A DNA stretch of 64,000 nucleotides from NCBI RefSeq assembly GCF_048403405.1, contig NZ_CP183129.1. One strand, written 5' to 3'. The stretch comes from Escherichia coli. Its GTDB lineage: Bacteria > Pseudomonadota > Gammaproteobacteria > Enterobacterales > Enterobacteriaceae. The position numbers and the translations under genes are program-made. Shown here piece after piece: positions 2,649 to 33,085 of the stretch (positions are counted from its first letter, which is position 1; each line of letters starts with the position of its first letter). The notes beneath the pieces were generated by a model. That model was not told the origin of the DNA. It made no database searches and was given only the letters and a program-made list of their open reading frames with translations.

Positions 2649-5550
<2,902 letters not shown>

Positions 5551-17800: not shown

Positions 17801-17880
17801 ATAAAAAAGGCGCTTCCCCATGCCGAGTAGCGCCTTTTTAATCAAGCATTTAGCTAACCTGAATTAGTTCATGCCGTATT
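17801..17880. repeat. attL: 80 bp direct repeat copy carrying a duplicate of the fis 3' end and terminator hairpin
   Basis: ataaaaaaggcgcttccccatgccgagtagcgcctttttaatcaagcatttagctaacctgaattagttcatgccgtatt, identical to 33086-33165. Confidence 0.9.
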
Positions 17881-18007
17881 ATCAAAACCTATGTTTCTTA
17901 CAGTTTGTCATGGTTCGTTAGTGTTTATATAACTTATTGAATAAAATGATTAATGTTGTTTCTTTAGTTTACCTTTGTTCATTTCTGTTCATAGGGTAAT
18001 ATTAAAG

Positions 18008-18029
18008 TGTGCAGTCAGTGGTGCAGTCA
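18008..18029 (+). repeat. Candidate integrase arm-type site (left copy); internal tandem GTGCAGTCAG x2
   Basis: tgtgcagtcagtggtgcagtca also present at 33059-33080; sits 27 bp upstream of the int start codon. Confidence 0.55.
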
Positions 18030-18055
18030 GTTTTCAATATGAATTAAGGTTTTCT

Positions 18056-19279
18056 ATGGCTGGAGGAACGAACAAATTAAGCGATACATCGTTGCGTAAG
18101 ATGCTGGGGAGGGAAATCGATAGAGATAGATTTTATGCTGACGGTGATGGATTGAGTATCAAGGTGTCAAAAATTGGCGTTCTTACTTGGTATTTCTCTT
18201 TCCGGATTGGTGGGCGTGAATCGTATTCACAGCGTGTTAAGCTTGGAAACTACCCGGATCTTTCTCTGAAAGCTGCGCGCGAGAAACGTGAACAGTGTCG
18301 AGCATGGCTTGCTGAAGGTAAAAATCCAAAGCATCGGTTAAATGTGGCAATACATGAAACACTCAAACCAGTGACGGTAAAAGAGGCTCTGGATTACTGG
18401 ATCAGAGAATACGCCGTTTACAAGCGCACGAATGTTGATAAACACATTGAGCAACTGAGGAAGCATATTTTCCCCTATATAGGTGATTATCCGTTATCAA
18501 TGTGCGAAACCCGGCATTGGCTGGAGTGTTTCGCTAGAGTAAGGAATGACGCTCCAGTGGCAGCTGGTTATTTGCTGCAGATGTGTAAGCAGGCTCTGAA
18601 GTTTTGCCGCGTACATCGTTATGCGGTTAGCAATGCTCTGGATGACCTGACTATCGATGATGTTGGTAGAAAACAGAATAAGCGCGATAGGGAACACAGC
18701 AGTCAAGAGTTAGCAGATATTTGGCAGGAATGTTCAGGTAAGAAATTTAAACCATACTATTCATCGTTGTTGCGTCTATTGGTGGTGTTTGGATGTCGAA
18801 CCCAGGAGCTTCGGTTGTCACGTATTACAGAGTGGGATTTAAAGGATTGGATCTGGACAGTGCCTAAAGAACACAGCAAAGGCGGAGAGAAGATATTGCG
18901 CCCTATTCCAGTGGTAATACGCCCATTCATCCAACAGCTTATAGAGCAACACAAAAACTCAGGTCTTTTGTTGGGTGAAATAAAGAAACCAGAAGCTGTC
19001 AGCCAATGGGGGAGGATGATATATAAGCGTCTGGGGCATATTGAATCGTGGACACTTCACGACCTGCGCAGGACGTTTGCTACCACACTAAATAACATGG
19101 GGGTTGCACCACATGTTGTTGAACAGCTTCTCGGTCACACATTAGGTGGTGTAATGGCCATATACAATCGTAGCCAGTACTTACCAGAAAAACTAGACGC
19201 TCTAAATAAATGGATGGAACGGCTTGAGGTTATTTCTGGTCAGTATTCAAATGTAAAAATATTGAAGGTAGCGAAATGA
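18056..19279 (+). CDS. int: Tyrosine integrase (P4-like, N-terminal arm-binding domain)
   Basis: 407 aa from MAGGTNKLSD with RBS aagg; C-terminal catalytic residues in HDLRRTFAT and GHTLGGVMAIYNRSQY. Confidence 0.9.
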   Translation: MAGGTNKLSDTSLRKMLGREIDRDRFYADGDGLSIKVSKIGVLTWYFSFRIGGRESYSQRVKLGNYPDLSLKAAREKREQCRAWLAEGKNPKHRLNVAIHETLKPVTVKEALDYWIREYAVYKRTNVDKHIEQLRKHIFPYIGDYPLSMCETRHWLECFARVRNDAPVAAGYLLQMCKQALKFCRVHRYAVSNALDDLTIDDVGRKQNKRDREHSSQELADIWQECSGKKFKPYYSSLLRLLVVFGCRTQELRLSRITEWDLKDWIWTVPKEHSKGGEKILRPIPVVIRPFIQQLIEQHKNSGLLLGEIKKPEAVSQWGRMIYKRLGHIESWTLHDLRRTFATTLNNMGVAPHVVEQLLGHTLGGVMAIYNRSQYLPEKLDALNKWMERLEVISGQYSNVKILKVAK

Positions 19280-20013
19280 AAAAGATAAGCATCCCTGAGC
19301 GTATATATTATCCATTGCCTGAAGCAGCAAAGAAGCTGGGATGTACGCTTAATGATATATATCATTTTGCTGCTATAGGTGCTTTGAATATTTCTGTTTA
19401 TTTTCCAAACTGTCATCCATGTAAATCGCTAGTTATACCAAAATCATTAGTTGAAAATATTGATGTTGATTCAGGTGGGATGTTGCAAGGGGATCGCTGG
19501 GTAATTACAGGGATGAAGCCTGTTGGTAGCGATTTTGAATGGGTAAATTATTTTGGTGTGGCTTCTTATCTTGCAAAGAATTTTTGCGGTTTCTTCTATC
19601 TAAATCGGGAAAGTTTTTCTGAACTTGAATTTATTGGCAATGATGCAAGGATAGTATCATCTTTTTTTTCAACTCGTCCTGAATCAGAAAACTGGGAATG
19701 TCAAATTATGAGTGATGGGGCTATTGAGATCGACAGAAGGTTTTTATGTGTAATGGCTAAGGATTTGGAGCATATCAAAGATGTTGGAACCATGCCTGGA
19801 AGAAAAATGGGAGAATCGCCAAAAACTCTTGCGAAGAAAGCTGAGTTGATCCCTGCATTAATCAAACTAATTCCAGAAATGGATGATATAGATATTGGAA
19901 CTGCTCCAGTTGCTAAAGTGATCGCTGTTTTAGAGGCTGCGGCAGCGATGAAAGGGGTGTTTCTTCCCGCAACAGATAAGAATACGTGGGCTAAATACTT
20001 AGGGCGAACGTGA
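19276..20013 (+). CDS. Hypothetical accessory protein, AT-rich, between int and alpA
   Basis: 245 aa ORF whose start overlaps the int stop (ATGA); no motif I recognise; Ala-rich C-terminus. Confidence 0.55.
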   Translation: MKKISIPERIYYPLPEAAKKLGCTLNDIYHFAAIGALNISVYFPNCHPCKSLVIPKSLVENIDVDSGGMLQGDRWVITGMKPVGSDFEWVNYFGVASYLAKNFCGFFYLNRESFSELEFIGNDARIVSSFFSTRPESENWECQIMSDGAIEIDRRFLCVMAKDLEHIKDVGTMPGRKMGESPKTLAKKAELIPALIKLIPEMDDIDIGTAPVAKVIAVLEAAAAMKGVFLPATDKNTWAKYLGRT

Positions 20014-20102
20014 TATCACATATAAAATATGTGATATCACCTAAATATTCTAAGCATATTATCAATATGCTCTCGAACGATAATAAACGAGGGCATATCC
20101 AT

Positions 20103-20324
20103 ATGAGCAAAGTTAAATCATCGCAAGACCAATTTGATCGCATCATTCGTGAGGAGGAATGCCGACGCCTTACCGGTATTTGCCGAACGACGCGTTATAT
20201 GATGGAAAGGAAAGGGGTGTTTCCAGCCCGTCGTCAGTTGGGGGCTCGTTCTGTCGGTTGGTTGCTGTCTGAGGTTAATGATTGGCTTGAACGTCAACCC
20301 AAAGCACAACTGAAATCGGCGTAA
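20103..20324 (+). CDS. alpA: AlpA-family transcriptional regulator (excisionase-like HTH)
   Basis: 73 aa from MSKVKSSQDQ with RBS gaggg; RLTGICRTTRYMMERKGVFPARRQLGARSVGWLLSEVNDWL matches the AlpA family pattern. Confidence 0.8.
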   Translation: MSKVKSSQDQFDRIIREEECRRLTGICRTTRYMMERKGVFPARRQLGARSVGWLLSEVNDWLERQPKAQLKSA

Positions 20325-20673
20325 GGTGAGTTATGGTATATAAAACAAAGGCGACCGGGGGCGGTCGCCAATGGATACACACTAAACTTGAACGCATCAC
20401 CAACAATGCCACATTTGCGGCTGGTGGGCAATGTGATCAGTCAGATTTGGTTCGTTCCAAGGTTTGCAACGAGAGCTTTTTCCTGTGCTCTTTAAGGAAT
20501 TTCTCAAGAGCAAACGAACAAGGTGCGAATCTTTCTGATTCATGTTCATGCGCTATATTTTTGCGTCGTCTCTTACGAGTTGGTGATGGTGTTTTGGTTG
20601 ATTCTGTGTCGCTCATGGTGCTGTCCTGTAAAGCAATGCGCCTGCGTTCCTCAAACTATGGCGCTGATAGTGG

Positions 20674-20979
20674 CTATTCCTGCCCTTTGACCTTGCGTCG
20701 CTGGAGTTCTTCACGCGCGACGGTGACGAGTTGCCCGATCTCCTCGGCGGCTTTGACTCCGATTTTTTCAACCTGCGCTAGGGCATCGAGCGAAGAAACC
20801 AGGAGGTTTTCTCCGCTTCCTTCTGCCTGGCGGCGGGCGATTTCACCGCGCATGGCGGTTACTATGAATCCGGCGTTGCTTTCACCGTCCAGTTTTACGG
20901 ATTCCATGCCTTCAATAACATCATGCGGGATCCGAGCTGTCAGTGATTGTGATTTTGCGTTTTTTGAACCTGTAGCCAT
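20674..20979 (-). CDS. Putative small DNA-binding regulator, possibly ribbon-helix-helix
   Basis: 101 aa from MATGSKNAKS with strong RBS gagga; LTARIPHDVIEGMESVKLD resembles an RHH strand-helix; divergent from the downstream module. Confidence 0.5.
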   Translation of the reverse strand: MATGSKNAKSQSLTARIPHDVIEGMESVKLDGESNAGFIVTAMRGEIARRQAEGSGENLLVSSLDALAQVEKIGVKAAEEIGQLVTVAREELQRRKVKGQE

Positions 20980-20994
20980 CTGTAATCCTCTCAA

Positions 20995-21175
20995 TGAAAG
21001 TGTAAGACAATATACACATAAAAAGTCTTACATAAAAGCATTGACATGTAAGCCACCTATAAATAAAGTTACTTACACCTTGTTAATGCAAGGTGCAGAA
21101 ACGACGAAACCCCGCACTGTAGGAGCAGTAACGGGGCTTCTAACCACCAACGATAGCAAGATTATCGAGGCAGCT
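20995..21175. promoter_or_regulatory. Divergent promoter region with an array of TGTAAG/CTTACA half-sites
   Basis: TGTAAG at 21001 and 21047, CTTACA at 21027 and 21072, forming two inverted-repeat pairs; TTGACA at 21041. Confidence 0.45.
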
Positions 21176-21379
21176 ATGAGAAATCATACCATACACCCGC
21201 AAGGGCGGGACTCGTACAACCTGAATAAATACATCTGGCGTTTTATCGCCCTGAGCACCGCACAACCGCGCGTGATTCACATCGTGGCCACCAGCGAACA
21301 GGAAGCACGCCAGCAATCCCCGGCTGGCTGCGTGATGGTATTCGCCGCCCGCATTCGTCAGGGGGGGTGCCATGCCTGA
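21176..21379 (+). CDS. Small hypothetical protein (67 aa)
   Basis: ATG at 21176 preceded by RBS gagg; retained portion of the 348-aa track ORF, which is otherwise antisense to the regulator gene. Confidence 0.4.
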   Translation: MRNHTIHPQGRDSYNLNKYIWRFIALSTAQPRVIHIVATSEQEARQQSPAGCVMVFAARIRQGGCHA

Positions 21380-21692
21380 TATGTCAAATTACCAGTACCT
21401 GATTAATCCGCATTTTAACTGTGAGCATGATATTGCTAAAAAGGTTTATTCCGCTGCGGATGGGGCTACTGACAATATATCAATGGCTGTTGCGTCAATT
21501 GGTAGCCTGATGTGGCATGCGTCAGAAAATGAGGAATATGACGCAAAGGCCATGCGCATTGATATGGGTAATATCGGTTTGTTACTGGCAATGCTTGGAC
21601 ATTTTGATATTTCGTTACGGTGCACCATTGAAAATGCCACAGATGCATTAAATGCCATAAAGAAAGCGAATACTGATTCAAATCGGGGATAA
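21372..21692 (+). CDS. Hypothetical protein (106 aa)
   Basis: ORF in the replication module, co-directional with primase; no recognisable motif. Confidence 0.5.
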   Translation: MPDMSNYQYLINPHFNCEHDIAKKVYSAADGATDNISMAVASIGSLMWHASENEEYDAKAMRIDMGNIGLLLAMLGHFDISLRCTIENATDALNAIKKANTDSNRG

Positions 21693-21698
21693 ATAATC

Positions 21699-21998
21699 AT
21701 GAGAACATATTTATCTGGCTTGACTGCCAGCGGTTATGCACACCCTAAAATTATCCCCGGCGCTATTTATCTGGATAAGAACGGTAACAGAGTAACGGTA
21801 AAAGAACTGATGTTTGACCGTGTTTATTTTATTCGTGATGGCTATTCATTTCATAGTTCGCTGAACGTGGAGATCTTTATTTGCAGATTCCGGCGGGAAA
21901 TCCCGCTTTCCAGAAATAACCATGTGTCATGTATGGATGTTGATAAAAAACTACAGGAACTGAAAAACATGATTGCCGCGTGGAGAGAGCAGAAATGA
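21699..21998 (+). CDS. Hypothetical protein (99 aa)
   Basis: ORF whose stop overlaps the primase start (ATGA coupling). Confidence 0.5.
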   Translation: MRTYLSGLTASGYAHPKIIPGAIYLDKNGNRVTVKELMFDRVYFIRDGYSFHSSLNVEIFICRFRREIPLSRNNHVSCMDVDKKLQELKNMIAAWREQK

Positions 21999-23812
21999 AA
22001 AAAGCGCCAAATTTAAAACACCAGCCGCGTGACAAAATGACGGAAGTCATCATTTTTGCGGGTAGTGATGCGTGGGCACATGCGAAGCAGTGGCAGGAAC
22101 AGGACGGGCGACTGGCAGGCGATAACGTGCCACCTGTCTGGCTTGGAGAGCAACAACTTGCCGAACTGGACAACCTGCAAATTGTACCGGACGGACGCTA
22201 TCGCGTGCGTCTCTATCAGGCGGGGTTATTGCGTCCGGGGCTTGTTAATACCATCGGGCAGAAACTGGCAGCGGCAGGTGTCAGGGATGCTGATTATTAC
22301 CCTGAAGGAATGCACAGCCAGAAACGGGAGAACTGGCGCGAATATCTGGAACGTGAGCGGGGAGAGCTGGCGGAAAAGAAAAAGGTAGTTGAACTGCCTG
22401 TAAAGAAAAAAGAGCGGGTAAAAGACGATAACGCTTCATCACTGGCGCTTAACCAGATGGGAGCAAGTCAACGCGGCGAAGTTCTCCTGGCACATTATGG
22501 CGGTGAACTGGCGATTCATGCCGACTCTGACACTGTTCACCATTACAACGGCGTTGTATGGGAGCCAGTACAGGATAAAGAATTACAGCGAGCTATGGCG
22601 CAGATTTTCATTGATGCGGAGATCAGCTATTCGCAGAACGCCATTAAATCGGCGGTCGATACCATGAAGTTAAGTTTGCCTGTAATGGGGAATACAGCCC
22701 GTAACCTGATTGGATTCAGTAACGGGGTATTTGATACCAGAACAGGTAATTTTCGGGAGCATAACAAAAACGACTGGTTGTTAATTGCCAGTGAATTACC
22801 TTTCAGCCCACCAGCAGAGGGGGAAACGCTGGCAACACATGCGCCGAATTTCTGGAAGTGGTTACGCCGTTCGGTGGCTGAGAATGACCGCAAGGCGGAT
22901 CGCGTACTGGCGGCATTATTCATGGTGCTGGCGAACCGGTACGACTGGCAGTTATTCATTGAGGTAACAGGTCCAGGGGGAAGTGGTAAAAGCGTGATGG
23001 CGGAGATTTGCACCATGCTGGCGGGTAAGGCTAATACAGTATCAGCAAGCATGAAGGCGCTGGAAGATGCAAGGGAACGTGCGTTAGTGGTTGGCTTTTC
23101 TCTGATTATCATGCCGGATATGACCCGCTACGCTGGTGATGGGGCAGGGATTAAGGCCATTACAGGCGGTGACAAGGTGGCAATTGACCCGAAACACAAA
23201 GCTCCCTACTCAACGCGTATTCCGGCAGTAGTGCTGGCGGTTAACAATAACGCCATGTCATTCAGTGACCGCAGCGGGGGGATCTCACGTCGTCGGGTGA
23301 TATTCAATTTTTCGGAAGTTGTACCGGAGAACGAACGTGATCCGATGCTGGCGGAAAAAATAGAAGGTGAGCTGGCGGTAGTGATTCGCCATCTGCTTAC
23401 ACGGTTTGCTAACCAGGACGAAGCCAGACGCCTGTTATATGAGCAGCAGAAATCTGAAGAAGCACTGGCGATAAAGCGAGAGGGGGATTCGCTGGTGGAC
23501 TTCTGCGGCTATCTCATGGCGTCGGTAATGTGTGATGGCCTGTTAGTGGGTAATGCTGAAATTGTGCCATTCAGCCCGCGCAGATATCTCTATCATGCCT
23601 ATCTGGCTTATATGAGGGCACATGGGTTTGGTAAACCTGTAACACTGACGCGCTTCGGTAAAGATATGCCGGGGGCAATGGCGGAATATGGCAGGGAGTA
23701 TATGAAACGGAAAACGAAGCACGGTTTGCGTTCAAACGTGACACTGACGGAGGAATCAGAAGACTGGATGCCATCATGTGTATCGGTCACTAATGACGAT
23801 AGCAAAAATTAA
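21995..23812 (+). CDS. Primase-helicase of the phage/plasmid P4-alpha type (PICI pri-rep)
   Basis: About 605 aa; Walker A GPGGSGKS in the C-terminal half; followed directly by the iteron array. Confidence 0.8.
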   Translation: MKKAPNLKHQPRDKMTEVIIFAGSDAWAHAKQWQEQDGRLAGDNVPPVWLGEQQLAELDNLQIVPDGRYRVRLYQAGLLRPGLVNTIGQKLAAAGVRDADYYPEGMHSQKRENWREYLERERGELAEKKKVVELPVKKKERVKDDNASSLALNQMGASQRGEVLLAHYGGELAIHADSDTVHHYNGVVWEPVQDKELQRAMAQIFIDAEISYSQNAIKSAVDTMKLSLPVMGNTARNLIGFSNGVFDTRTGNFREHNKNDWLLIASELPFSPPAEGETLATHAPNFWKWLRRSVAENDRKADRVLAALFMVLANRYDWQLFIEVTGPGGSGKSVMAEICTMLAGKANTVSASMKALEDARERALVVGFSLIIMPDMTRYAGDGAGIKAITGGDKVAIDPKHKAPYSTRIPAVVLAVNNNAMSFSDRSGGISRRRVIFNFSEVVPENERDPMLAEKIEGELAVVIRHLLTRFANQDEARRLLYEQQKSEEALAIKREGDSLVDFCGYLMASVMCDGLLVGNAEIVPFSPRRYLYHAYLAYMRAHGFGKPVTLTRFGKDMPGAMAEYGREYMKRKTKHGLRSNVTLTEESEDWMPSCVSVTNDDSKN

Positions 23813-23824
23813 ACTTATGGAATA

Positions 23825-24049
23825 ACTGTTCACCACTGTTCACCCTGTCATAAATATCTTTTATATCAGTATATTATAGGGTTAACAGTTATTTATGAAC
23901 TGTTCACCAAACTATTCACTGTTCACCTTTTTGATTGTTTATTGAGCTTCAAGGGTGAACAGTGGTGAACAGTTGGTGAATAGTTTTTGTGAAACTGTTC
24001 ACCCCTTAACCTTATGAATTAAAAGATAAAATATCAAAAGGTGAACAGG
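23825..24049. repeat. Candidate origin of replication: array of about 9 ACTGTTCACC / GGTGAACAGT iterons with AT-rich spacers
   Basis: Direct copies at 23825, 23835, 23899, 23918, 23994; inverted copies at 23954, 23964, 24040; degenerate copies at 23909 and 23975; immediately 3' of the primase gene. Confidence 0.75.
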
Positions 24050-24196
24050 TGAAGGGTTAAAACGCAAAAATTTTAATTTACTGCTGTGAGATAAAGACTA
24101 TGACAGTAAAGCACACAAAAACACGCGCTTGATTTGACCGAATACTGGTTAAAAATGACTACAAATTAGATAAATTAGATAAAATAGGAAGAAATA

Positions 24197-24457
24197 ATGC
24201 CGATTCTGACGCATGAAATAAACAATTATTTTGATCAATTCGGACTTCATGATATTGCTTCAATGCCTACCACTCAGTACCGTCAGGCCCTTGCAAATGG
24301 TGGTTTACTGTGGATTGATCATCATGATTTTATTCGTAGCACGCTATCAGATGAAATCCTTGCAACAAATCAAGAGCAGGTTAATGTTTTGATTGAGCAT
24401 TTGCAGGTTTTAAGGAAAAAAATGCCACTACCTCCTAATTGGATGAGTGAGAAATGA
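24197..24457 (+). CDS. Hypothetical protein (86 aa)
   Basis: ATG at 24197 with RBS aggaag; convergent with the two-gene operon. Confidence 0.55.
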   Translation: MPILTHEINNYFDQFGLHDIASMPTTQYRQALANGGLLWIDHHDFIRSTLSDEILATNQEQVNVLIEHLQVLRKKMPLPPNWMSEK

Positions 24458-24459
24458 AT

Positions 24460-24490
24460 TATATGGCCTGGCTCTTTGCCAGGCCATATA
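24460..24490. terminator. Bidirectional terminator: perfect 13 bp inverted repeat between convergent stop codons
   Basis: tatatggcctggc-tctttg-ccaggccatata located exactly between the stops at 24455-24457 (+) and 24492-24494 (-). Confidence 0.75.
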
Positions 24491-24491
24491 C

Positions 24492-25001
24492 TCAAAGCAT
24501 TGTTAACAAGGCGGACGCACCAGCACCAACGAGACTGGCTACCGTACTATTATTTAGTAAATCCTTAAGCAAATTTTTTGCCTGAGGATCTTGTGATTGA
24601 GAAACTTTTTCAACAAGTTCAGTTATGCTGAGATTTACAATAAGATTGTTATGCTCACCGAGTTGAACCTGTGTACCGGATATGTTACCAATGTTAAATG
24701 TATTTTGGCTAGATTGTTTTGGTTTATGTTCATTAGCAGTCAGATTCTCGACTTTTAATGTAAGCATGTGAGGGTGATTAGTACCAACATTGAGTGTACC
24801 TCCTGGTAAAAATGACATATCAATTACTTTTAATATTATTTCCCCCTTCCCTAGTTTTTGAGTGATTTCATCTCCAATATTAATATCTGGTTCTTCAGTA
24901 TAAGGGATTAGCACTTTTTTTTCAGCTGAGTTTCTTTTCCCCTTGTATTCAACTCCTGCGATTGTGAATTTTTCTGGATATGCCATGACGTTAAGATCCA
25001 T
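24492..25001 (-). CDS. Candidate system gene B: 169-aa protein with hydrophobic Gly/Ala-rich C-terminal tail
   Basis: ATG (rc of 24999-25001) with RBS gaggag 7 nt upstream; 27 bp after gene A; C-terminus STVASLVGAGASALLTML; shares a C-terminal module with gene A. Confidence 0.7.
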   Translation of the reverse strand: MDLNVMAYPEKFTIAGVEYKGKRNSAEKKVLIPYTEEPDINIGDEITQKLGKGEIILKVIDMSFLPGGTLNVGTNHPHMLTLKVENLTANEHKPKQSSQNTFNIGNISGTQVQLGEHNNLIVNLSITELVEKVSQSQDPQAKNLLKDLLNNSTVASLVGAGASALLTML

Positions 25002-25030
25002 TATGTTGCTCCTCGTGATCGCTTTTGCGT

Positions 25031-25807
25031 TTAACTAGTAGATTTGAAAGTGTATTTTGTCTGTGTGTTAAGGTTTGATATTAGAGCTTCATAGTTTTCT
25101 TTACTCAGTAAGTTTTTTGAGTAGGCCTTCTTAAGAAGGTTTTTTGAGAGAGTAATAATTTCTTTTTCACCAGTTGATGCAATTTTTGAGAAGAACTCAG
25201 AGAGCTCTTGTATATTAATATTGTTATTTGTACCAAGTTGTACGTATTGGCTATTTACAGTAGCTATGTTGAATATGTTTTGTTTTGGATGCGTTTTTTT
25301 TAGCTTTTCAATTTCAGCATGTTCTATGATTTTTTGAGAGATACTTTCAATATAACCACTAACGTCTTTTTTTTCTGGGAAGGAAAACCCATCACCTCTT
25401 AATATTTTATCTGTTTCGGCCATTTCATAGTAAAGCCTGCGAATCATCACAAGTAATAGTAATTTAGCCTCCTCGATTGACTCCTCTATTGAGAATTGAC
25501 ATTCAATTGCTAACGCGGAGGTCTGCTCTAAAACAATTTCTGAGTTATTTTCAATGTAAGGATTGATAAAACCATTCCAAAAAATTTGAACGGGAGTACC
25601 TTTAAATGCCAAACCTTGATAGCATATTTCTGTTCCATCATATGCAGTAACTTTCATGGGGGGGCCTGCATTGAAAAATCGCCATCTATGAATCAGTTTG
25701 GTTAATCTTTCGTCAATCTCCCGAACTAATTTATAAGTCCTTTTGAACAATGGGGATGGTCGCATCCCAGGAACAGCAAGAATTTCTTTTGTCACTTGAA
25801 TCTCCAT
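25031..25807 (-). CDS. Candidate system gene A: 258-aa protein, no recognisable motifs
   Basis: First gene of the two-gene minus-strand operon; Lys/Asn/Ile-rich, AT-rich coding sequence; segment KQNIFNIATVNSQYVQLGTNNNINIQELSEFF is paralogous to gene B. Confidence 0.7.
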   Translation of the reverse strand: MEIQVTKEILAVPGMRPSPLFKRTYKLVREIDERLTKLIHRWRFFNAGPPMKVTAYDGTEICYQGLAFKGTPVQIFWNGFINPYIENNSEIVLEQTSALAIECQFSIEESIEEAKLLLLVMIRRLYYEMAETDKILRGDGFSFPEKKDVSGYIESISQKIIEHAEIEKLKKTHPKQNIFNIATVNSQYVQLGTNNNINIQELSEFFSKIASTGEKEIITLSKNLLKKAYSKNLLSKENYEALISNLNTQTKYTFKSTS

Positions 25808-26054
25808 AGTTTATCAGCATTTTTGTAAATTATTTGTGTGTTAACATTCAAGACTGTTCGTAACAAAAATACCTTATTTACATCAATTTTTTGATCCATA
25901 TCTTAAATAGTGGCACTCAGACGTGAGCCGCCACTGTTGCCGTCCGATCCCCTGCGCGATGCCGGGTTGATCTGCGAGATGCCGAGAGTGTCGGGCGGCG
26001 CTCCCTCCGTGTTGGTTTCACGTCCTGAATCTTAACCAATACGAGAAAACCTTC

Positions 26055-27224
26055 ATGAAGAAATTAATCGAGCTCCGCCAGCAAAAAAACGCCCTGAAAA
26101 ACCAGATGCGATCCCTGCTGGAAAAAGCCGACAGTGAAAACCGCAGCCTGAACGATGACGAGGGCAAACAGTTTGATGAACTGCGTGCAAAAGCTGATTC
26201 CCTCGATACAGACATTTCCCGCCTCGAGTCTGTGGCTGATGAAGAACGCAGCAAGCCAGGAACGGGCATCCAGAAAGTATCATCTGATGAATTGCGTAAC
26301 TACATCGTAACCGGAGATGTGCGATCTCTGTCCACCAGCACTGACAGCGGCAGGGATGGCGGATATACCGTAATTCCTGAGCTTGATCGCGAAGTCATGC
26401 GCCAGCTACAGGATGACAGTGTTATGCGCGTGATCGCGACCGTGAAGACTGCAAAATCAAATGAGTTTCAGAAACTGGTTTCCACTGGCGGCGCAACTGT
26501 AGGACGAGGCACAGAAGGCAGCGCACGCAGTGAAACCAACACCCCGAAAATTGAACGCGTAACCATCAAGCTGAACCCGATCTACGCCTACCCGAAAACC
26601 ACGCAGGAAATCCTAGATTTTTCAGAGGTGGATATTCTGGGCTGGTTATCCTCCGAAATTGCCGACACGTTCGCCAGCACCGAAGAGGATGATTTTGTTA
26701 ATGGCAACGGTAACGGCAAGCCGAAAGGCTTCATGGCTTACACCCGTGCGGCGACCAGTGACAAAACCCGCGCTTTTGGCACCATTGAAAAAATGGTAGC
26801 GGCAAGTGGAACCGCCATTACAGCGGACGAACTGATCGACATTCTCTACAAGCTGAAAGCGAAATACCGCAAAAATGCCGTCTGGGTGATGAACTCGGGC
26901 ACGGCAGGGACACTACAGAAGCTGAAAAATGAGAACGGCGATTATATCTGGCGCGACAGCCTTAAAGAAGGTGCGCCGGATATGTTGCTTGGTCGTCCTG
27001 TTTACTGCCTGGAGTCCATGCCGGACATCGGCGCAGGAAAAGCACCGCTAGCGGTTGGCGATTTCAGTCGTGGTTATTTCATCGTTGATCATGTAACAGG
27101 GATTCGCACCCGACCGGACAACATTACTGAACCCGGATTCTACAAGGTCCACACGGATAAATATCTGGGCGGTGGTGTGGTGGATTCAAACGCCATCAAA
27201 ATTCTGGAAATGAAAGCTGGCTAG
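26055..27224 (+). CDS. Major capsid protein, HK97 fold, with N-terminal coiled-coil delta/scaffold domain
   Basis: 389 aa; coiled-coil N-terminus then conserved MCP blocks (LLGRPVYCLESMP, GDFSRGYFIVDHVTGIRTRPD, NAIKILEMKAG). Confidence 0.85.
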   Translation: MKKLIELRQQKNALKNQMRSLLEKADSENRSLNDDEGKQFDELRAKADSLDTDISRLESVADEERSKPGTGIQKVSSDELRNYIVTGDVRSLSTSTDSGRDGGYTVIPELDREVMRQLQDDSVMRVIATVKTAKSNEFQKLVSTGGATVGRGTEGSARSETNTPKIERVTIKLNPIYAYPKTTQEILDFSEVDILGWLSSEIADTFASTEEDDFVNGNGNGKPKGFMAYTRAATSDKTRAFGTIEKMVAASGTAITADELIDILYKLKAKYRKNAVWVMNSGTAGTLQKLKNENGDYIWRDSLKEGAPDMLLGRPVYCLESMPDIGAGKAPLAVGDFSRGYFIVDHVTGIRTRPDNITEPGFYKVHTDKYLGGGVVDSNAIKILEMKAG

Positions 27225-27278
27225 TCATGAGTAAGGAGGAGGCTGCGGCCTCCTTTTTCAGCTTTATGGAGTACACCG

Positions 27279-27839
27279 ATGAAAAACACCGATTTTGAAA
27301 TCCGCACATCTGAACTGACCGCCAGCAATAAAAAGCTGGTGGGGTATGCCGTTCGCTGGAACAGCCTTTCAGAAATTATCTGGGACGAATTCCGCGAACA
27401 GTTCACGCCGGGGGCTTTTGCTGACTATCTGGCGGCGGGTAATGATGTGCGCTGCCTGTATGAGCATGACTATACCCAACTGCTGGGGCGCACCAAATCC
27501 GGCACTCTGGTACTGACTGAGGATAACACCGGGTTACGTTTTGAACTGACACCGCCGGATACCCAGCTTGGAAAAGATGTGCTTACGCTGGTGGAGCGTG
27601 GCGACATTACAGGAATGAGCTTTGGTTTTCGCGCATTATGCGAGGAGTGGAGTATCGCGCAAAAACCGTATTTGCGTACCGTAACCGCCGCTGAACTCCG
27701 TGAAATCACAATAACGTCGATGCCTGCTTATCCAGAATCTGGCGTGGAGATTGCCCACCGTTCGTTGTTTGCACAGCACCCTGAATTATGCCCGACAGGA
27801 AATAATCGTCATCGCTGGTCTGAGCTGGCGGGGTTGTGA
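27279..27839 (+). CDS. Prohead maturation protease, HK97 family
   Basis: 186 aa; pattern FEIR...GYAVRWN...GAF...LYEHD...LGRT...GMSFGFR...MPAYPE typical of HK97 prohead protease. Confidence 0.8.
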   Translation: MKNTDFEIRTSELTASNKKLVGYAVRWNSLSEIIWDEFREQFTPGAFADYLAAGNDVRCLYEHDYTQLLGRTKSGTLVLTEDNTGLRFELTPPDTQLGKDVLTLVERGDITGMSFGFRALCEEWSIAQKPYLRTVTAAELREITITSMPAYPESGVEIAHRSLFAQHPELCPTGNNRHRWSELAGL

Positions 27840-27840
27840 T

Positions 27841-29055
27841 ATGTGGTGGCCTTTTAGTCGTAAAAAAAGCGAGCAGCGTAACCTGTCCATTGATGATTTT
27901 CTGGCGCTGTCCGGCGTACCGAATACCGGATCCGGAGAATATGTTTCTGCCGGGACGGCTGAATCATTGCCTGCAGTGATGAATGCGGTTTCTGTCATCG
28001 CTGAGGCGGTGGCCACGATGCCGTGTTATCTGTATCTGGTACGTAATGACAAGGGCAGGGAGGCGCGGGAATGGCTGGACAGTCACCCGGTAGATATTCT
28101 GCTGAATGAGCAGCCTAATTCGTGCCAGACACCTTACCAGTTTAAACGCACAATGATGCGTCACTGCCTGCTGAACGGTAACGCCTATGCGGTTATTGAG
28201 TGGGGGCAGGACGGGCAGCCAAAATCACTTCATCCTTATGCGCCGGGGTGTGTTGTACCGGAACGCACAGGCGCACACAAATACCGCTATACCATCACCG
28301 AACCCTATACAGGAACGGTGCGCACGTATTTACAGGAAGAAGTTCTGCATCTCCGCTATGCCTCGGATGATGGCTTTCTGGGGCGCTCCCCCGTCACGAT
28401 TTGCCGTGAGGCACTTGGGCTTGGCCTTGCTCAACAGCGCCACGGAGCCAGCATTATGAAAGATGGCATGATGGCGGCAGGGATTATCACGTCAGGCGAA
28501 TGGCTGGACGGCGTGAAAGGTAAACAGGCATTGGATGCTCTGGAACGCTACAAGGGGGCGAAAAATGCCGGAAAAACGCCAATCCTTGAAGGGGGCATGG
28601 ATTACAGGCAACTGGGAATGAGTAACCAGGATGCGGAATGGCTGGCCTCCCGTCGCTTCTCCATTGAAGACATCGCCCGCATGTTCAACGTATCGCCTAT
28701 TTTTCTGCAGGAATACAGCAACAGCACCTACAGCAATTTCAGCGAGGCAAGCCGCGCGTTTCTGACCATGACAATGCGCCCGTGGCTGGCGAACTTCGAA
28801 CAGCAAATCAAGGCCGCTTTGCTGGTGGCTTCTCCCGTACCTGGTACCCGTTATCTGGTTGAGTTTGATTCAGCCGATTTATTACGCGCCACACCCACCG
28901 AACGTTATGCCACGTATGAGAAAGGGATTAAGAACGGGATCATGAATCCGAACGAAGCCCGTGAGCGTGAGGGTATGCCGCCGCGTGAAGGTGGTGATGA
29001 GTTCAGCCAGGCATGGAAACAGACTGTGGAAATTAAAGGGAGAAAAGATGAGTGA
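27841..29055 (+). CDS. Portal protein, HK97 family
   Basis: 404 aa from MWWPFSRKK, starting 2 nt after the protease stop; the track ORF's upstream extension overlaps the protease. Confidence 0.8.
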   Translation: MWWPFSRKKSEQRNLSIDDFLALSGVPNTGSGEYVSAGTAESLPAVMNAVSVIAEAVATMPCYLYLVRNDKGREAREWLDSHPVDILLNEQPNSCQTPYQFKRTMMRHCLLNGNAYAVIEWGQDGQPKSLHPYAPGCVVPERTGAHKYRYTITEPYTGTVRTYLQEEVLHLRYASDDGFLGRSPVTICREALGLGLAQQRHGASIMKDGMMAAGIITSGEWLDGVKGKQALDALERYKGAKNAGKTPILEGGMDYRQLGMSNQDAEWLASRRFSIEDIARMFNVSPIFLQEYSNSTYSNFSEASRAFLTMTMRPWLANFEQQIKAALLVASPVPGTRYLVEFDSADLLRATPTERYATYEKGIKNGIMNPNEAREREGMPPREGGDEFSQAWKQTVEIKGRKDE

Positions 29056-29350
29056 AGCCAGAATTACACCTGATGAAGTCAGGGCACATCTTCGACTTGA
29101 TGATGATTTATCCGGTGAAGGCGAACTTCTGAAAATGTATACCGATGCGGCGCTGGAAGCCTGCCAGAAGCATATCGGGAAACGTTTTGAAGACGGGCTG
29201 GAATTTACCCCGGCAATGCGTGTTGGTTGCCTGATGTACATCGCTTTCCTGTACGAGAACCGGGAAGCGGTTTCACCAGTGGAGCACTCGGAACTGCCTA
29301 TGGCTATTTCTGCGCTCTGGTCAGTTTATCGTGACGTAGGGGTGTACTGA
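29048..29350 (+). CDS. Head-tail connector (gp6-like) protein
   Basis: 100 aa, MSEARITPDEVRAHLRLDDDLSGEGELLKMYTDAALEACQKHIGKRF; start overlaps the portal stop. Confidence 0.7.
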   Translation: MSEARITPDEVRAHLRLDDDLSGEGELLKMYTDAALEACQKHIGKRFEDGLEFTPAMRVGCLMYIAFLYENREAVSPVEHSELPMAISALWSVYRDVGVY

Positions 29351-29790
29351 TGCCGTGGCAACCATTAAGGCGATGCACTGAGCCTGGCTGTAATAAGCGC
29401 GTGAAGTCCGGCAAGTGTGAAGAGCACAGGCGGGCTGCATGGCGTGCAGAGGATGCCAGACGGGGACACCGCCGCGCGCGCGGGTATTCCCGACAGTGGG
29501 ACAAATACCGCGCCCTGTACCTGAGCAAAAACCCGTTATGCGTGCGTTGTCTGGCTAAGGGGATTTATACGCCAGCTCTTGTGGTGGATCACATCATTCC
29601 CATCAATGGCGGCGGTGATGTTCTCTTCTGGCCTGAGTGGAATCACCAGGCATTGTGCCAGACGTGCCACAACCGTAAGACGACACGGGAAGATCCAGCC
29701 ACGAAAGCAAACCGTAAAGCGGGCATGTATCACGAGCAGGAAGAACGGGCGGCACACCGTAACGACTGGATGTATGGCGATGATGACTGA
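29350..29790 (+). CDS. HNH endonuclease (cos-packaging accessory nuclease)
   Basis: 146 aa; Cys-rich HNH core CVRCLAKG...VVDHIIPINGGGD...NHQALCQTCHNRKT. Confidence 0.85.
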   Translation: MPWQPLRRCTEPGCNKRVKSGKCEEHRRAAWRAEDARRGHRRARGYSRQWDKYRALYLSKNPLCVRCLAKGIYTPALVVDHIIPINGGGDVLFWPEWNHQALCQTCHNRKTTREDPATKANRKAGMYHEQEERAAHRNDWMYGDDD

Positions 29791-29960
29791 ACAGGAGCAA
29801 ACCAGGCTGATACGTGGACTGATAAGGCAGCGTGACACATGGAAGACACAGGAGACAGAGCACAAAGCCAACAGGACAGGGCGCACAAAACTCACCACAG
29901 CGAAGCGATTAACCGACCGTGACCGCGAGGTCATGGAATGTTTTCGCAATCGCTGGTGAG

Positions 29961-30026
29961 GCCGTCAGAGGGGGTGGGGGTGGTTTTCAGGACGAAACCG
30001 TCCCTGCCGGACACCGACCGCCCCCT
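29961..30026. other. Candidate cos/packaging site between HNH and terS
   Basis: G-tract gagggggtgggggtgg and complementary C-tract ccgccccctc flanking palindrome ggacgaaaccgtcc, in the 290 bp gap upstream of terS. Confidence 0.35.
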
Positions 30027-30078
30027 CAAATTTTTGTGCACGGTAATTTTTTTGAAAATAATTGGGCGAAAAAAGAAC

Positions 30079-32367: not shown

Positions 32368-32408
32368 CTTGCTGATATTCCCGATAACGCAAAATTGCGT
32401 TGGCTGGC
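32366..32408 (+). repeat. Copy 1 of a 43 bp imperfect direct repeat in the right-end non-coding region, followed by palindrome TGCAAATTTGCA (32414-32425)
   Basis: taacttgctgatattcccgataacgcaaaattgcgttggctgg versus copy 2 at 32669-32711, about 35 of 43 identical by eye. Confidence 0.6.
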
Positions 32409-32668: not shown

Positions 32669-32711
32669 TAACTGGTTGATATTCCCGACAGCCCCAAAAT
32701 GGGTTGGCTGG
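32669..32711 (+). repeat. Copy 2 of the 43 bp imperfect direct repeat, followed by palindrome TTGCAGATCTGCAA (32720-32733)
   Basis: taactggttgatattcccgacagccccaaaatgggttggctgg. Confidence 0.6.
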
Positions 32712-33080: not shown

Positions 33081-33085
33081 TTTTA

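What the first reader, a model, noticed from the sequence alone, without database searches (positions are those of the whole stretch)
18008..18029. 22 bp sequence upstream of int is repeated next to attR (candidate integrase arm sites)
tgtgcagtcagtggtgcagtca, itself a tandem of GTGCAGTCAG, occurs 27 bp upstream of the int start and again at 33059-33080, 5 bp from the attR core. Symmetrical placement near both ends is what is expected of arm-type binding sites for a P4-like integrase or excision factor; the int-proximal copy could also autoregulate int.
Basis: seen in the sequence. Interest (0 to 1): 0.4.

Follow-up and report, generated by a model that had tools for sequence, protein, structure and literature searches.

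The report
Integrase arm sites of a fis-inserted phage satellite
The repeated 22-bp sequence is real and is most likely the pair of docking sites that this phage satellite's own integrase grips when it cuts itself into or out of the chromosome next to the fis gene; this is a known kind of site, but it had been reported absent from this group of satellites.

Summary
Observation confirmed. TGTGCAGTCAGTGGTGCAGTCA occurs exactly twice (18008-18029, 33059-33080), just inside each end of a 15.2-kb capsid-forming PICI satellite inserted at the 3' end of fis. Each copy is two GTGCAGTCA half-sites 12 bp apart.

Interpretation supported for the integrase, not for AlpA. Relatives inserted at the same fis core carry at least seven different tandem motifs in the same layout. 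The far-arm tandem starts 97-98 bp upstream of the crossover segment. The int-side tandem starts 136 bp downstream, 234 bp from the first in attP. Motif class follows the integrase N-terminal arm-binding domain: one residue, Ser58/Pro58, separates GTGCAGTCA from GTGTAGTCA integrases. AlpA does not predict the motif, since identical AlpA helix-turn-helix regions occur with different motifs.

Phage P4's annotated attP arm repeats have the same layout. So does the "doubled motif" published for HE-PICIs (231-232 bp), which that paper called unique to HE-PICIs and left without a binder.

Binding and autoregulation of int are inferred, not shown. Two or three elements have mismatched arms.

Verdict: a new member of a known kind, of moderate interest.

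The parts
18008..18029 (+). P' arm tandem (int-proximal): two GTGCAGTCA half-sites (18009-18017, 18021-18029), period 12. Candidate arm-type sites for the Int N-domain and possibly an operator of int.
   Evidence: Exact repeat. Conserved in a diverged spacer in L002 and in every class-A relative sampled by Int homology alone. Starts 136 bp from the crossover centre in 51 of 52 instances.
33059..33080 (+). P arm tandem (fis-proximal end of the element): two GTGCAGTCA half-sites (33060-33068, 33072-33080), period 12.
   Evidence: Exact repeat. Found 5-7 bp from the hairpin that precedes the fis core in Buttiauxella, Enterobacter and many IMG/VR contigs whose flanks are otherwise unrelated. Starts 97-98 bp upstream of the crossover centre in 28 of 28 instances.
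17801..17880 (.). attL identity block (80 bp). It contains the native fis terminator hairpin (17804-17839), a duplicated copy of the last 17 bp of fis (17864-17880) and the inferred crossover segment GTTCATGCCGTA (17867-17878).
   Evidence: Perfect 80-bp direct repeat. The empty fis-yhdJ site in about 5,400 E. coli genomes ends exactly at 17880. The crossover is narrowed by L003/L006 (17-bp block) and by the L004/L005 att variants. It matches the published fis PICI block TACGGCATGAACTAA.
33086..33165 (.). attR identity block (80 bp). The element-borne copy of the terminator hairpin (33089-33124) now terminates fis. Crossover segment at 33152-33163. The fis stop codon is at 33149-33151 (minus strand).
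17881..33085 (+). The 15,205-bp satellite (capsid-forming PICI integrated at fis): int, alpA, icd-like, DUF4222, D5/P4-type primase, capsid, protease, portal, connector, HNH, TerS, TerL. No tail genes.
   Evidence: Pfam. RefSeq annotation of the identical locus in NZ_CP103479.1. Present in 25 of 5,426 complete E. coli genomes.
18056..19279 (+). int, a 407-aa P4-like tyrosine integrase. Residues 1-100 (18056-18355) form the arm-type DNA-binding domain. The variable beta3-loop-beta4 hairpin is residues 43-66, and Ser58 is the candidate determinant for base 4 of the half-site.
   Evidence: PF13356 E=1.4e-17 and PF00589. PDB sequence hits 3JTZ/3RMP/3JU0. AF2 model pLDDT 84. Foldseek rmsd 1.1-1.5 A to arm-type binding domains of the HPI and HAI7 integrases. 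Column analysis.
20103..20324 (+). alpA (HTH regulator and putative excision factor). Part of the integration module, but not the protein that tracks the 22-mer.
   Evidence: PF05930. Annotation. Identical AlpA HTH regions with different motifs.
17893..17991 (+). Ladder of GTTYR boxes at 10-bp spacing in the P' arm (17893, 17903, 17913, 17923, then 17967, 17977, 17987). A second, class-independent layer of attP architecture with an unknown binder (RDF/AlpA, another factor, or intrinsic bending).
   Evidence: Conserved columns in the footprint alignment. GTT-GTT distance of 10 bp: 60 observed vs 2.2 expected; 20 bp: 33 vs 1.9; 30 bp: 12 vs 1.6. Coordinates.
33038..33052 (+). GTTCG-N5-GTTCG boxes in the P arm, 11-21 bp upstream of the P tandem. 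Same ladder as in the P' arm.
   Evidence: Present at fixed offsets in 24 non-redundant, otherwise very divergent P arms.
17975..18002 (+). Candidate int promoter (inferred only): -35 TTGTTC (17975-17980), 16-bp spacer, -10 TAATAT (17997-18002). It would start transcription at about the first half-site.
   Evidence: Read by eye. The -10-like TAAYAT block is conserved in classes A and A'. It did not pass the consensus scan. Coordinates.

Best explanation
The two 22-mers are the P and P' arm-type binding sites of the satellite's own P4-like tyrosine integrase. There are two tandem half-sites per arm, four in all, enough for one per subunit of an integrase tetramer. After excision the ends join into attP, where the two tandems are co-oriented and 234 bp apart start to start (about 22 helical turns), on either side of a crossover segment at the 3' end of fis. 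The N-terminal arm-binding domain of each Int subunit would hold an arm half-site while its C-terminal domains hold the core. This folds attP (or attL plus attR) into the recombination complex for integration and excision. Because int is transcribed inward from attL, its promoter must lie between the core and the ATG, and the P' tandem sits at or just after the likely start site. Int bound there probably also represses its own gene. What is shown: the repeat, the att structure, the empty site, the fixed geometry, the motif classes, the tracking with the Int N-domain rather than AlpA, and the fold of that domain. What is inferred: physical binding, the requirement for recombination, the one-half-site-per-subunit picture, and autoregulation.
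For: (1) The repeat is exact and non-random.
(2) The element is a bona fide integrated satellite with a precise empty site. Junction-form contigs carry the two tandems 234 bp apart (L067/L082 = L088/L087). These are either excised or packaged attP, or boundaries between tandem copies.
(3) Int has the arm-binding domain (Pfam). The AF2 model superposes on the solved arm-type binding domains of P4-like integrases 3JU0, 3JTZ and 3RMP at rmsd 1.1-1.5 A.
(4) Footprint: in L002 the int module is only 76% identical and the spacer has diverged, yet the 22-mer is intact.
(5) In a sample chosen by Int homology alone, 35 of 38 distinct int-upstream regions have a tandem with at least 11/12 identity, against 0.08% of shuffles.
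(6) All four half-sites change in concert. The classes are GTGCAGTCA, GTGTAGTCA, GTGTAACTA, GGTTGTCA, TGTATAAACA, GTGTATCAC and TGGAACAAC, all at the same fis core. Both arms match in 24 elements.
(7) Rigid geometry: -97/-98 in 28 of 28 instances and +136 in 51 of 52.
(8) Partner test. The highest identity among pairs with different motifs is 1.00 for the AlpA HTH region but 0.90 for the Int N-domain, and that 0.90 pair differs by a single motif base. ARI against motif class is 0.81 for the Int N-domain and 0.60 for AlpA. Only residue 58 (Ser vs Pro, at the start of beta4) separates C from T at half-site base 4, including in a family that uses a different core.
(9) P4's GenBank record annotates 12-bp 'attP arm sequence repeat' units as tandem pairs, one 15 bp upstream of int and one 54 bp beyond the core.
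(10) HE-PICI doubled motifs have the same period and a 231-232 bp spacing.
(11) Precedent for autoregulation: P4 Int, KplE1 IntS and PAI-I536 IntI repress their own promoters in attL.
Against: No binding or genetic data exist for this integrase, so everything rests on comparison. Arm matching within an element partly reflects inheritance of the element as a unit. There are exceptions: L099 has GTGTAGTCA at P' and GTGCAGTCA at P. Contig 2740892410_000004 (L130/L186) pairs a class-D int side with a GTGTAGTCA far arm. L149 shows a junction with a single half-site. The motif classes and N-domain clusters are not phylogenetically independent samples, so the ARI values and the Ser58/Pro58 split overstate the statistical support. 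The Int catalytic domain also tracks motif class fairly well (ARI up to 0.77), because int is inherited as one gene. The consensus promoter scan found no promoter in the int-proximal arm, so the operator role rests on a weak hand-picked -35.
Confidence: 0.8

Rival explanations
1. The tandems are binding sites for AlpA (the element's HTH regulator and recombination directionality factor). AlpA would bind both arms to drive excision and/or control int.
For: AlpA-family proteins (P4 Vis, KplE1 TorI) do bind att regions and regulate int. The HE-PICI paper lists AlpA as a possible binder of its doubled motif. AlpA type correlates loosely with motif class (ARI 0.6).
Against: Class E (GTGTATCAC) elements carry the same AlpA HTH as classes A and A'. 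Class F (TGGAACAAC) carries the same AlpA as class D (TGTATAAACA). L003 and L006 have nearly identical AlpA recognition helices but different motifs. The highest AlpA-HTH identity among different-motif pairs is 1.00. RDF sites are typically phased one helical turn apart (abstract listed). The 10-bp GTTYR ladder fits that better than the 12-bp tandems do.
Confidence: 0.06
2. The tandems bind some other protein, either a host nucleoid protein or another element-encoded factor linked to int. They act as architectural or regulatory sites, not as integrase arm sites.
For: The binder has not been identified experimentally. A gene overlapping the int stop codon (19276-20013; DUF6387 in relatives) travels with int in several elements.
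Against: A host factor cannot explain four different motifs at the same site in one species, E. coli. The int-adjacent gene is absent from L003 and L006, which have the same architecture. Int is the only protein whose variable DNA-binding hairpin tracks the motif down to a single residue and a single base.
Confidence: 0.05
3. The repeat is functional, but for replication or packaging (ori iterons, or a cos/pac recognition site), not for recombination.
For: Satellites carry iterons and packaging sites. The far-arm copy lies downstream of the terminase genes.
Against: The position is fixed relative to the crossover segment rather than to rep or terminase genes. The same layout exists in satellites with entirely different replication and packaging modules: L003/L006 with VapE and TerS only, HE-PICIs, and P4. 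A separate iteron-like cluster (CTGTTCAC x7) sits right after the primase gene at 23826-24002.
Confidence: 0.02
4. The repeat has no function. It is a by-product of how the ends were formed, or a chance or slippage repeat.
For: Tandem GTGCAGTCA-N3-GTGCAGTCA strings with other spacers do occur in unrelated genomes, mostly in coding repeats.
Against: Zero expected in shuffles. Both copies lie inside the element rather than in the duplicated host block. Both are kept in diverged backgrounds and across genera. Parallel tandems with other sequences occupy the same positions.
Confidence: 0.01

Closest known systems
The 'doubled motif' tgTGTATTGCantgTGTATTGCa of helper-embedded PICIs (HE-PICIs), NAR Genom Bioinform 2023, PMC10111431
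   Same: It belongs to a sister integrase clade. It is a tandem of two half-sites with a 12-bp period, in two co-oriented copies per attP at fixed distances on either side of the crossover. Measured my way, the start-to-start spacing is 231-232 bp, against 232-234 bp here. The published 81 + 132 bp equals my inner-edge 77 + 136 = 213 bp if they measured to inner edges.
   Different: The sequence differs (GTGCAGTCA here). The paper states the motif was not found in fis PICI attPs and is unique to HE-PICIs, and it leaves Int arm domains, AlpA or an unknown protein open as the binder. Here the fis PICIs show the same architecture with a polymorphic motif (at least seven classes), and the covariation points to the Int N-domain.
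Bacteriophage P4 attP arm repeats (GenBank NC_001609 features 'attP arm sequence repeat') and P4 Int autoregulation
   Same: The units are 12 bp, in tandem pairs. One pair (ATTGGGGGCATA ATTGGGGGCATC) lies 15 bp upstream of the int ATG. One pair lies 54 bp beyond the core, co-oriented with the first. The integrase has the same domain architecture. P4 Int represses Pint by direct DNA binding (Piazzolla 2006, as cited).
   Different: P4 Int is only about 25% identical. The motif is GGGGGCA. The spacing is 209 bp rather than 234 bp. P4 has an extra inverted copy over the int ATG and one inside int, and neither is seen here. P4's target is a tRNA-Leu gene, not fis.
KplE1 (CPS-53) IntS P' arm-type sites overlapping the intS promoter in attL (PLoS Genet 2010, PMC2951348)
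   Same: int is transcribed inward from attL, so its promoter overlaps the recombination region. Arm-type Int sites near the promoter give negative autoregulation. The RDF also binds nearby.
   Different: That case is shown experimentally for KplE1; here it is only inferred. The integrase family, target and site sequences all differ.
Lambda Int P1/P2 and P'1-P'3 arm-type sites (classical heterobivalent integrase model)
   Same: The N-domain binds arm sites distant from the core in both arms, bridging arm and core in the intasome (general knowledge, summarised).
   Different: Lambda has five sites in a 2 + 3 layout and depends on IHF, Xis and Fis sites. Here the layout is 2 + 2 with a 12-bp period, and a 10-bp GTTYR ladder takes the place of recognisable IHF sites.
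Arm-type binding domains of the HPI and HAI7 P4-like integrases (PDB 3JTZ, 3JU0, 3RMP)
   Same: The fold is the same as the window Int N-domain (rmsd 1.1-1.5 A, 28-35% identity). Entry 3RMP is titled as the structural basis for recognition of attP substrates.
   Different: They come from different islands, targets and arm sequences. The papers were not available in the library, so residue-level contacts could not be transferred.

Membership tests
Arm-type sites of a heterobivalent (lambda/P4-type) tyrosine integrase | The cognate integrase carries an N-terminal arm-type DNA-binding domain in addition to its core-binding and catalytic domains | tested here: met
   PF13356 Arm-DNA-bind_3 E=1.4e-17, PF22022 and PF00589. 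PDB hits 3JTZ/3RMP/3JU0. AF2 model pLDDT 84, Foldseek rmsd 1.1-1.5 A.
Arm-type sites of a heterobivalent (lambda/P4-type) tyrosine integrase | Repeated sequence, unrelated to the core, present in both arms of attP inside the element | tested here: met
   Copies at 18008-18029 and 33059-33080 lie inside the element. Junction-form contigs show both copies flanking the core.
Arm-type sites of a heterobivalent (lambda/P4-type) tyrosine integrase | Fixed spacing and orientation relative to the crossover region | tested here: met
   -97/-98 in 28 of 28 and +136 in 51 of 52 instances. The copies are co-oriented, with 232-234 bp between tandem starts.
Arm-type sites of a heterobivalent (lambda/P4-type) tyrosine integrase | Site sequence co-varies with the integrase arm-binding domain | tested here: met
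   ARI 0.81. No pair with different motifs exceeds 0.90 N-domain identity. Ser58/Pro58 tracks C/T at base 4. Caveat: the lineages are not independent, and there are 2-3 elements with mismatched arms.
Arm-type sites of a heterobivalent (lambda/P4-type) tyrosine integrase | Direct, specific binding by the Int N-domain, and a requirement for recombination | not testable with these tools
   Needs EMSA or footprinting, and attP mutagenesis with integration and excision assays.
P4-type attP layout | 12-bp arm repeats as a tandem pair just upstream of int and a co-oriented tandem pair beyond the core | tested here: met
   P4 features 3942-3965 and 4151-4174, with the core at 4078-4097. The window has the same layout. 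The spacing differs (209 vs 234 bp).
HE-PICI doubled motif (PMC10111431) | Tandem of two 8-9-bp cores with period 12; two co-oriented copies per attP at fixed distances | tested here: met
   (231-232 bp in L209/L275 vs 232-234 bp in fis PICIs).
HE-PICI doubled motif (PMC10111431) | Core sequence TGTATTGC | tested here: not met
   The window motif is GTGCAGTCA. The other fis-PICI classes also differ. The architecture is the same but the sequence is not.
fis PICI / capsid-forming PICI | Integration at the 3' end of fis with the identity block TACGGCATGAACTAA; int-alpA-primase module | tested here: met
   Core TTAGTTCATGCCGTA at 17864 and 33149. Genes.
fis PICI / capsid-forming PICI | Own capsid, protease, portal, connector, HNH and TerS/TerL genes, and no tail genes | tested here: met
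   Pfam. Annotation of the identical locus. Family description.
fis PICI / capsid-forming PICI | Induction by a helper phage, and transfer | not testable with these tools
   Indirect only: junction-form contigs occur in viral-contig collections.
RDF (AlpA/Xis/Vis/TorI) binding sites | Site sequence co-varies with the RDF | tested here: not met
   Identical AlpA HTH regions occur with different motifs: classes A/A' vs E, D vs F, and B vs C.
Autoregulatory operator of an int promoter embedded in attL (KplE1 / P4 type) | int is transcribed inward from attL, so its promoter lies in the recombination region | tested here: met
   int (18056, + strand) starts 175 bp from the identity block. Upstream lie the host terminator and the convergent gene yhdJ.
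Autoregulatory operator of an int promoter embedded in attL (KplE1 / P4 type) | The Int site overlaps the promoter or transcription start, and Int represses transcription | tested here: inconclusive
   The consensus scan found no promoter. A hand-picked TTGTTC-16-TAATAT ends 6 bp before the first half-site, and its -10 block is conserved in classes A and A'. No expression data.

The most novel reading that the evidence does not exclude
The arm sites and the Int N-domain form a set of at least seven or eight mutually orthogonal specificity pairs that all use one chromosomal site (the fis 3' end) and one rigid attP geometry (about 22 helical turns between tandems). This diversification would be an adaptation to competition for that site. 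A satellite whose integrase reads only its own arm code can excise itself cleanly from tandem arrays and cannot be excised, or blocked, by a co-resident relative. The Ser58/Pro58 to C/T correspondence would be one readable letter of that code. The published view that the doubled motif is unique to HE-PICIs would then be replaced by a clade-wide, fast-evolving arm code.
Probability: 0.3. Interest if true: 0.6.

Novelty: new member of a known kind. Interest (0 to 1): 0.4.

Why it matters
Capsid-forming and other fis-inserted PICIs are abundant in Enterobacteriaceae: thousands were mapped in PMC10111431. They move between species, yet their recombination sites have not been dissected.

This analysis gives concrete, testable Int-binding half-sites, their geometry and a crossover segment. 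It extends a published motif, thought to be unique to one subgroup, to the whole integrase clade. It also gives a reasoned answer to the question that paper left open, namely whether the integrase arm domain or AlpA reads the motif.

The set of natural motif and N-domain pairs at a single attB, including a one-residue/one-base correspondence, is a ready-made system for studying or engineering arm-site specificity. It would also allow orthogonal integration tools to be built.

For genome annotation, the tandem pair at -98/+136 offers a precise way to recognise the ends of these satellites and to resolve tandem arrays.

Tried and rejected
1. The consensus promoter/terminator scan of 17780-18120 found nothing, so the operator idea rests on a weak hand-picked promoter.

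2. The motif-first scan of genome contigs returned mostly unrelated hits with other spacers: coding repeats in Actinobacteria, Planctomycetes and others. Only Buttiauxella and Enterobacter were relevant, and one genome per species limits that collection.

3. AlpA as the binder was considered seriously and rejected on covariation.

4. A host factor was rejected because four motifs occur at one site in E. coli. The int-adjacent ORF was rejected because it is absent from L003 and L006.

5. An ori or cos role was rejected on position, and because a separate iteron cluster exists.

6. I looked for extra or inverted copies like those in P4 (over the int ATG and inside int). There are none in the window.

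7. My longest-common-substring reconstruction of attP misplaced the block in L076 and L184. The core-anchored measure and the junction contig L177 were used for those instead.

8. I checked whether class F integrases on 38-46 kb contigs are true prophages at fis. The 12 kb I hold looks PICI-like (Bro, primase/DUF927, SSB), consistent with the published 'elongated PICIs', so I did not pursue it.

9. The structural papers behind 3JTZ/3JU0/3RMP are not in the library, so protein-DNA contacts could not be mapped onto residue 58.
Full report
**Observation.** The 22-mer TGTGCAGTCAGTGGTGCAGTCA occurs exactly at 18008-18029 and 33059-33080 on the + strand. There is no other match with up to three mismatches in the window, and none in 100 dinucleotide-preserving shuffles. 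Each copy is two GTGCAGTCA half-sites 12 bp apart. These four are the only exact half-sites in 64 kb, and one-mismatch copies are at chance level (20 observed vs 15 expected).

**What the repeat sits in.** A perfect 80-bp direct repeat (17801-17880 and 33086-33165) brackets a 15,205-bp insert.
- The repeat covers the last 17 bp of fis (fis = 33149-33445, minus strand), the fis terminator hairpin, and the spacer towards yhdJ (16894-17784).
- In about 5,400 complete E. coli genomes the yhdJ flank runs straight into fis and stops matching exactly at 17880. Only 25 of 5,426 genomes carry the insert.
- The insert encodes a P4-like tyrosine integrase with an Arm-DNA-bind_3 N-domain, AlpA, an Icd-like protein, DUF4222 and a D5/P4-type primase. 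It also encodes capsid, prohead protease, portal, connector, HNH, TerS and TerL, with no tail genes.
- This is the gene set of a capsid-forming PICI. The site is that of the published 'fis PICIs', whose identity-block consensus TACGGCATGAACTAA is the reverse complement of the core found here.

**Where the crossover is.** Other satellites at the same site share much less with attB.
- L003 and L006 share only TTAGTTCATGCCGTATT and bring their own terminator hairpin.
- L004 and L005 have attL TTAGTTCATGCCGTACT but attR TCAGTTCATGCCGTATT.
- So exchange occurs within GTTCATGCCGTA (window 17867-17878 and 33152-33163).
The int ATG is at 18056, 26 bp after the repeat.

**Comparative test 1: same site, different integrases.** Five E. 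coli loci with integrases of graded divergence, all at fis-yhdJ, were fetched.
- L002: the int region is 76% identical at the DNA level and the core-to-int spacer has diverged. The 22-mer is nevertheless intact at both ends.
- L003: the motif is replaced by GTGTAACTATTGGTGTAACTATT, abutting the int ATG, and by GTGTAACTTGGCGTGTAATT near the fis end.
- L006: GTTGTCAaaaagGTTGTCA and GGTTGTCAgtacGGTTGCAA.
- L004 and L005: TGTATAAACAttTGTATAAACA and TGTATAAACAtcTGTATAAACA.
- The period is 12 bp in every case. One pair lies just upstream of int, and the other lies 5-7 bp from the hairpin that precedes the core.

**Comparative test 2: motif-first search.** I searched for GTGCAGTCA-N3-GTGCAGTCA in one genome per species and in IMG/VR.
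- Every hit with the GTG spacer (Buttiauxella massiliensis, Enterobacter soli and about 25 viral contigs) lies either just upstream of an int start or next to the hairpin and fis core. The surrounding arm sequence is otherwise unrelated.
- Hits with other spacers are unrelated repeats in other phyla.
- Two metagenomic contigs (L067, L082) carry both copies 234 bp apart around one core. That is the spacing predicted for a reconstituted attP, although a boundary between tandem copies would look the same.

**Comparative test 3: sampling by integrase homology alone.** Eighty IMG/VR loci with 60-87% identical integrases were retrieved, all next to the fis core.
- All 44 loci with enough upstream sequence show a tandem just before int. 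Of the 38 distinct upstream regions, 35 have a tandem with at least 11/12 identity, against 0.08% of shuffles.
- New classes appear: GTGTAGTCA (a one-base variant changed in both half-sites), GTGTATCAC, and TGGAACAAC (period 11).
- Where both ends are visible, the far arm carries the same class as the int side in 24 elements, including classes A, A', B, C, D and E. One contig holds a class-D and a class-A satellite in tandem, each with its own motif.
- There are exceptions. L099 has GTGTAGTCA at P' and GTGCAGTCA at P. Contig 2740892410_000004 pairs a class-D int side with a GTGTAGTCA far arm. L149 has a junction with a single half-site.

**Geometry.** In classes A, A', D and E the far-arm tandem starts 97-98 bp upstream of the centre of the crossover segment (28 of 28 instances). 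The int-side tandem starts 136 bp downstream (51 of 52). Classes B and C give 83-85 and 149 bp. The start-to-start distance in attP is therefore 232-234 bp in all classes, about 22 helical turns, even though the sequence in between is heavily diverged and free of indels.

**Who reads the motif.** I extracted the Int N-domain and the AlpA homologue from 50 loci with a called motif.
- Class E elements carry the same AlpA HTH as classes A and A'. Class F carries the same AlpA as class D. L003 and L006 have almost identical AlpA recognition helices but different motifs.
- Among pairs with different motifs, AlpA-HTH identity reaches 1.00. Int N-domain identity never exceeds 0.90, and that maximum is A versus A', whose motifs differ by one base.
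- The adjusted Rand index against motif class is 0.81 for the N-domain and 0.60 for AlpA. The catalytic domain also reaches 0.77, which is expected because int is inherited as one gene.
- Between classes the N-domain is the most diverged Int segment; within a class it is the best conserved.
- An AF2 model of residues 1-101 (pLDDT 84) has strands 25-30, 33-37, 43-50 and 58-66 packed on helix 71-86. It superposes on the solved arm-type binding domains of the P4-like integrases HAI7, HPI and 3RMP at rmsd 1.1-1.5 A.
- The class-variable part is the beta3-loop-beta4 hairpin. Exactly one of the 100 columns, residue 58 (Ser vs Pro), separates all ten distinct GTGCAGTCA integrases from all nine distinct GTGTAGTCA integrases. 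That set includes a family that integrates at a different core (identity block ATAACAGCA) yet uses GTGTAGTCA tandems 233 bp apart.
- So arm recognition is modular and independent of core specificity.

**Comparison with what is known.**
- Phage P4's GenBank record annotates 12-bp 'attP arm sequence repeat' units. A tandem pair, ATTGGGGGCATA ATTGGGGGCATC, lies 15 bp upstream of the int ATG. A co-oriented pair lies 54 bp beyond the core. There are two extra copies not seen here. P4 Int is only about 25% identical to the window Int, and the spacing is 209 bp.
- P4 Int represses its own promoter by direct binding. KplE1 IntS does so through P' arm sites that overlap its promoter, and PAI-I536 IntI is also autoregulated.
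- The closest match is the 2023 HE-PICI paper. It describes tgTGTATTGCantgTGTATTGCa in two co-oriented copies per attP, at 81 +/- 2 and 132 +/- 2 bp from the centre. It states that the motif was not found in fis PICI attPs and is unique to HE-PICIs, and it leaves Int arm domains, AlpA or an unknown protein open as the binder.
- Measured with my convention, two HE-PICIs give 231 and 232 bp. My inner-edge distances, 77 + 136 = 213 bp, equal their 81 + 132 if they measured to inner edges.
- The window's 22-mer pair is thus the fis-PICI counterpart of that motif. A global alignment would have blurred it, because the sequence is polymorphic.

**Mechanism proposed.**
- Shown: the repeat, the att structure and empty site, the fixed geometry, the concerted class changes, the tracking with the Int N-domain rather than AlpA, and the fold of that domain.
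- Inferred: the four half-sites are bound by the N-domains of Int subunits, possibly one per subunit of a tetramer, bridging the arms to the core for integration and excision.
- Also inferred: because int is transcribed inward from attL, its promoter must lie in the 175 bp between the identity block and the ATG. A hand-picked TTGTTC-16-TAATAT (17975-18002), whose -10 block is conserved in classes A and A', would start transcription at about the first half-site. Int bound to the P' pair would then repress int as in P4 and KplE1. The consensus scan did not call this promoter, so this step is the weakest.

**A second layer.** Both arms carry GTTYR boxes at 10-bp spacing: window 17893/17903/17913/17923, 17967/17977/17987, and 33038/33048.
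- In 17 non-redundant P' arms, GTT-GTT distances of 10, 20 and 30 bp occur 60, 33 and 12 times, against about 2 expected. In 24 very divergent P arms the boxes sit at fixed offsets.
- They do not change with motif class. One-turn phasing is typical of recombination directionality factors (abstract listed), so AlpA is a candidate. Intrinsic bending or another protein cannot be excluded.

**Limits.**
- No binding or genetic data exist for this integrase.
- The classes are lineages rather than independent samples, so the covariation statistics overstate the support.
- Arm matching partly reflects descent of whole elements.
- Two or three elements have mismatched arms.

**Verdict.** The integrase arm-site reading is well supported (about 0.8), the AlpA alternative is disfavoured, and autoregulation is plausible but untested. 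This is a new member of a known kind of site. Its added value is that it extends a motif reported as unique to one subgroup to the whole clade, and points to its reader.

Noticed in passing
window 17893-17991 and 33038-33052; also all related loci: Ladder of GTTYR boxes at exactly 10-bp spacing in both att arms: four next to the core, three before the int-side tandem, and two or three before the far-arm tandem. They stay the same across all motif classes. GTT pairs 10 bp apart occur 60 times vs 2.2 expected. Binder unknown (AlpA/RDF, another protein, or intrinsic curvature).
   Followed up: partly
window 18039-18047 (ATG AAT TAA); ATGAACTGAGG in relatives: A conserved two-codon mini-ORF (Met-Asn-stop) whose stop codon overlaps the Shine-Dalgarno sequence of int. 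It is kept in classes A, A' and E although the sequence just upstream is variable and has indels. Possible translational control of int.
   Followed up: no
window 23826-24002: Seven copies of CTGTTCAC/GTGAACAG in direct and inverted orientation immediately downstream of the primase gene (which ends at 23812). This is probably the satellite's replication origin iterons.
   Followed up: no
L157 + L101 + L060 (contig IMGVR_UViG_2713896732_000002): Two different satellites in tandem at fis: a class-D element followed by a class-A element. The internal att site has a class-D far arm on one side and a class-A int-side arm on the other.
   Followed up: partly
L099/L053; L130/L186 (contig IMGVR_UViG_2740892410_000004); L149 core at 318: Elements whose two arms carry different motif classes (A'/A; D/A'), and one junction with a single half-site. 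These may be recombinant or immobilised satellites, or unresolved tandems.
   Followed up: partly
L161-L197 group, e.g. L177 16-269 and L184 713-733 / 11891-11911: A further satellite family that integrates at a different chromosomal site (identity block ATAACAGCA; target gene not identified). It uses GTGTAGTCA-CTG-GTGTAGTCA tandems in both arms, 233 bp apart in the junction form. Its Int N-domain is related (TWYFTYR...RPER).
   Followed up: partly
L067 (249 and 483, minus strand) and L082 (4381 and 4615); also L138, L142, L119: Metagenomic viral contigs in which the far arm, core and int-side arm are contiguous. They are either the excised or packaged attP form of these satellites, or boundaries between tandem copies.
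   Followed up: partly
L002 (NZ_CM142767.1) 20185-30130: A degraded relative at the same site. Its int-alpA module comes from another lineage, its primase and major capsid genes are missing, and its protease is truncated. Its portal-to-TerL region and far arm are nearly identical to the window's, so it is a mosaic, decaying satellite.
   Followed up: no
L003 27648-29933 and L006 25979-28267: The class B and C satellites at fis are a different type: VapE primase, TerS only, and a large gene annotated 'phage tail tape measure protein' that ends about 10 bp before the far-arm tandem.
   Followed up: no
L023, L033, L041, L045, L046 (rumen/gut Clostridia MAGs): GTGCAGTCA-AAA-GTGCAGTCA tandems about 65 bp upstream of a terminator hairpin that abuts the 3' end of a tRNA gene. 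This is the same 'tandem, hairpin, att target' layout in unrelated bacteria, and may be the far arm of another integrative element.
   Followed up: no
L125, L127, L133 (contigs of 38-46 kb): Class F integrases (motif TGGAACAAC, period 11, plus a third copy) at fis on long viral contigs. The first 12 kb looks PICI-like (Bro, CHC2 primase, DUF927, SSB), consistent with the 'elongated fis PICIs' in the literature.
   Followed up: partly
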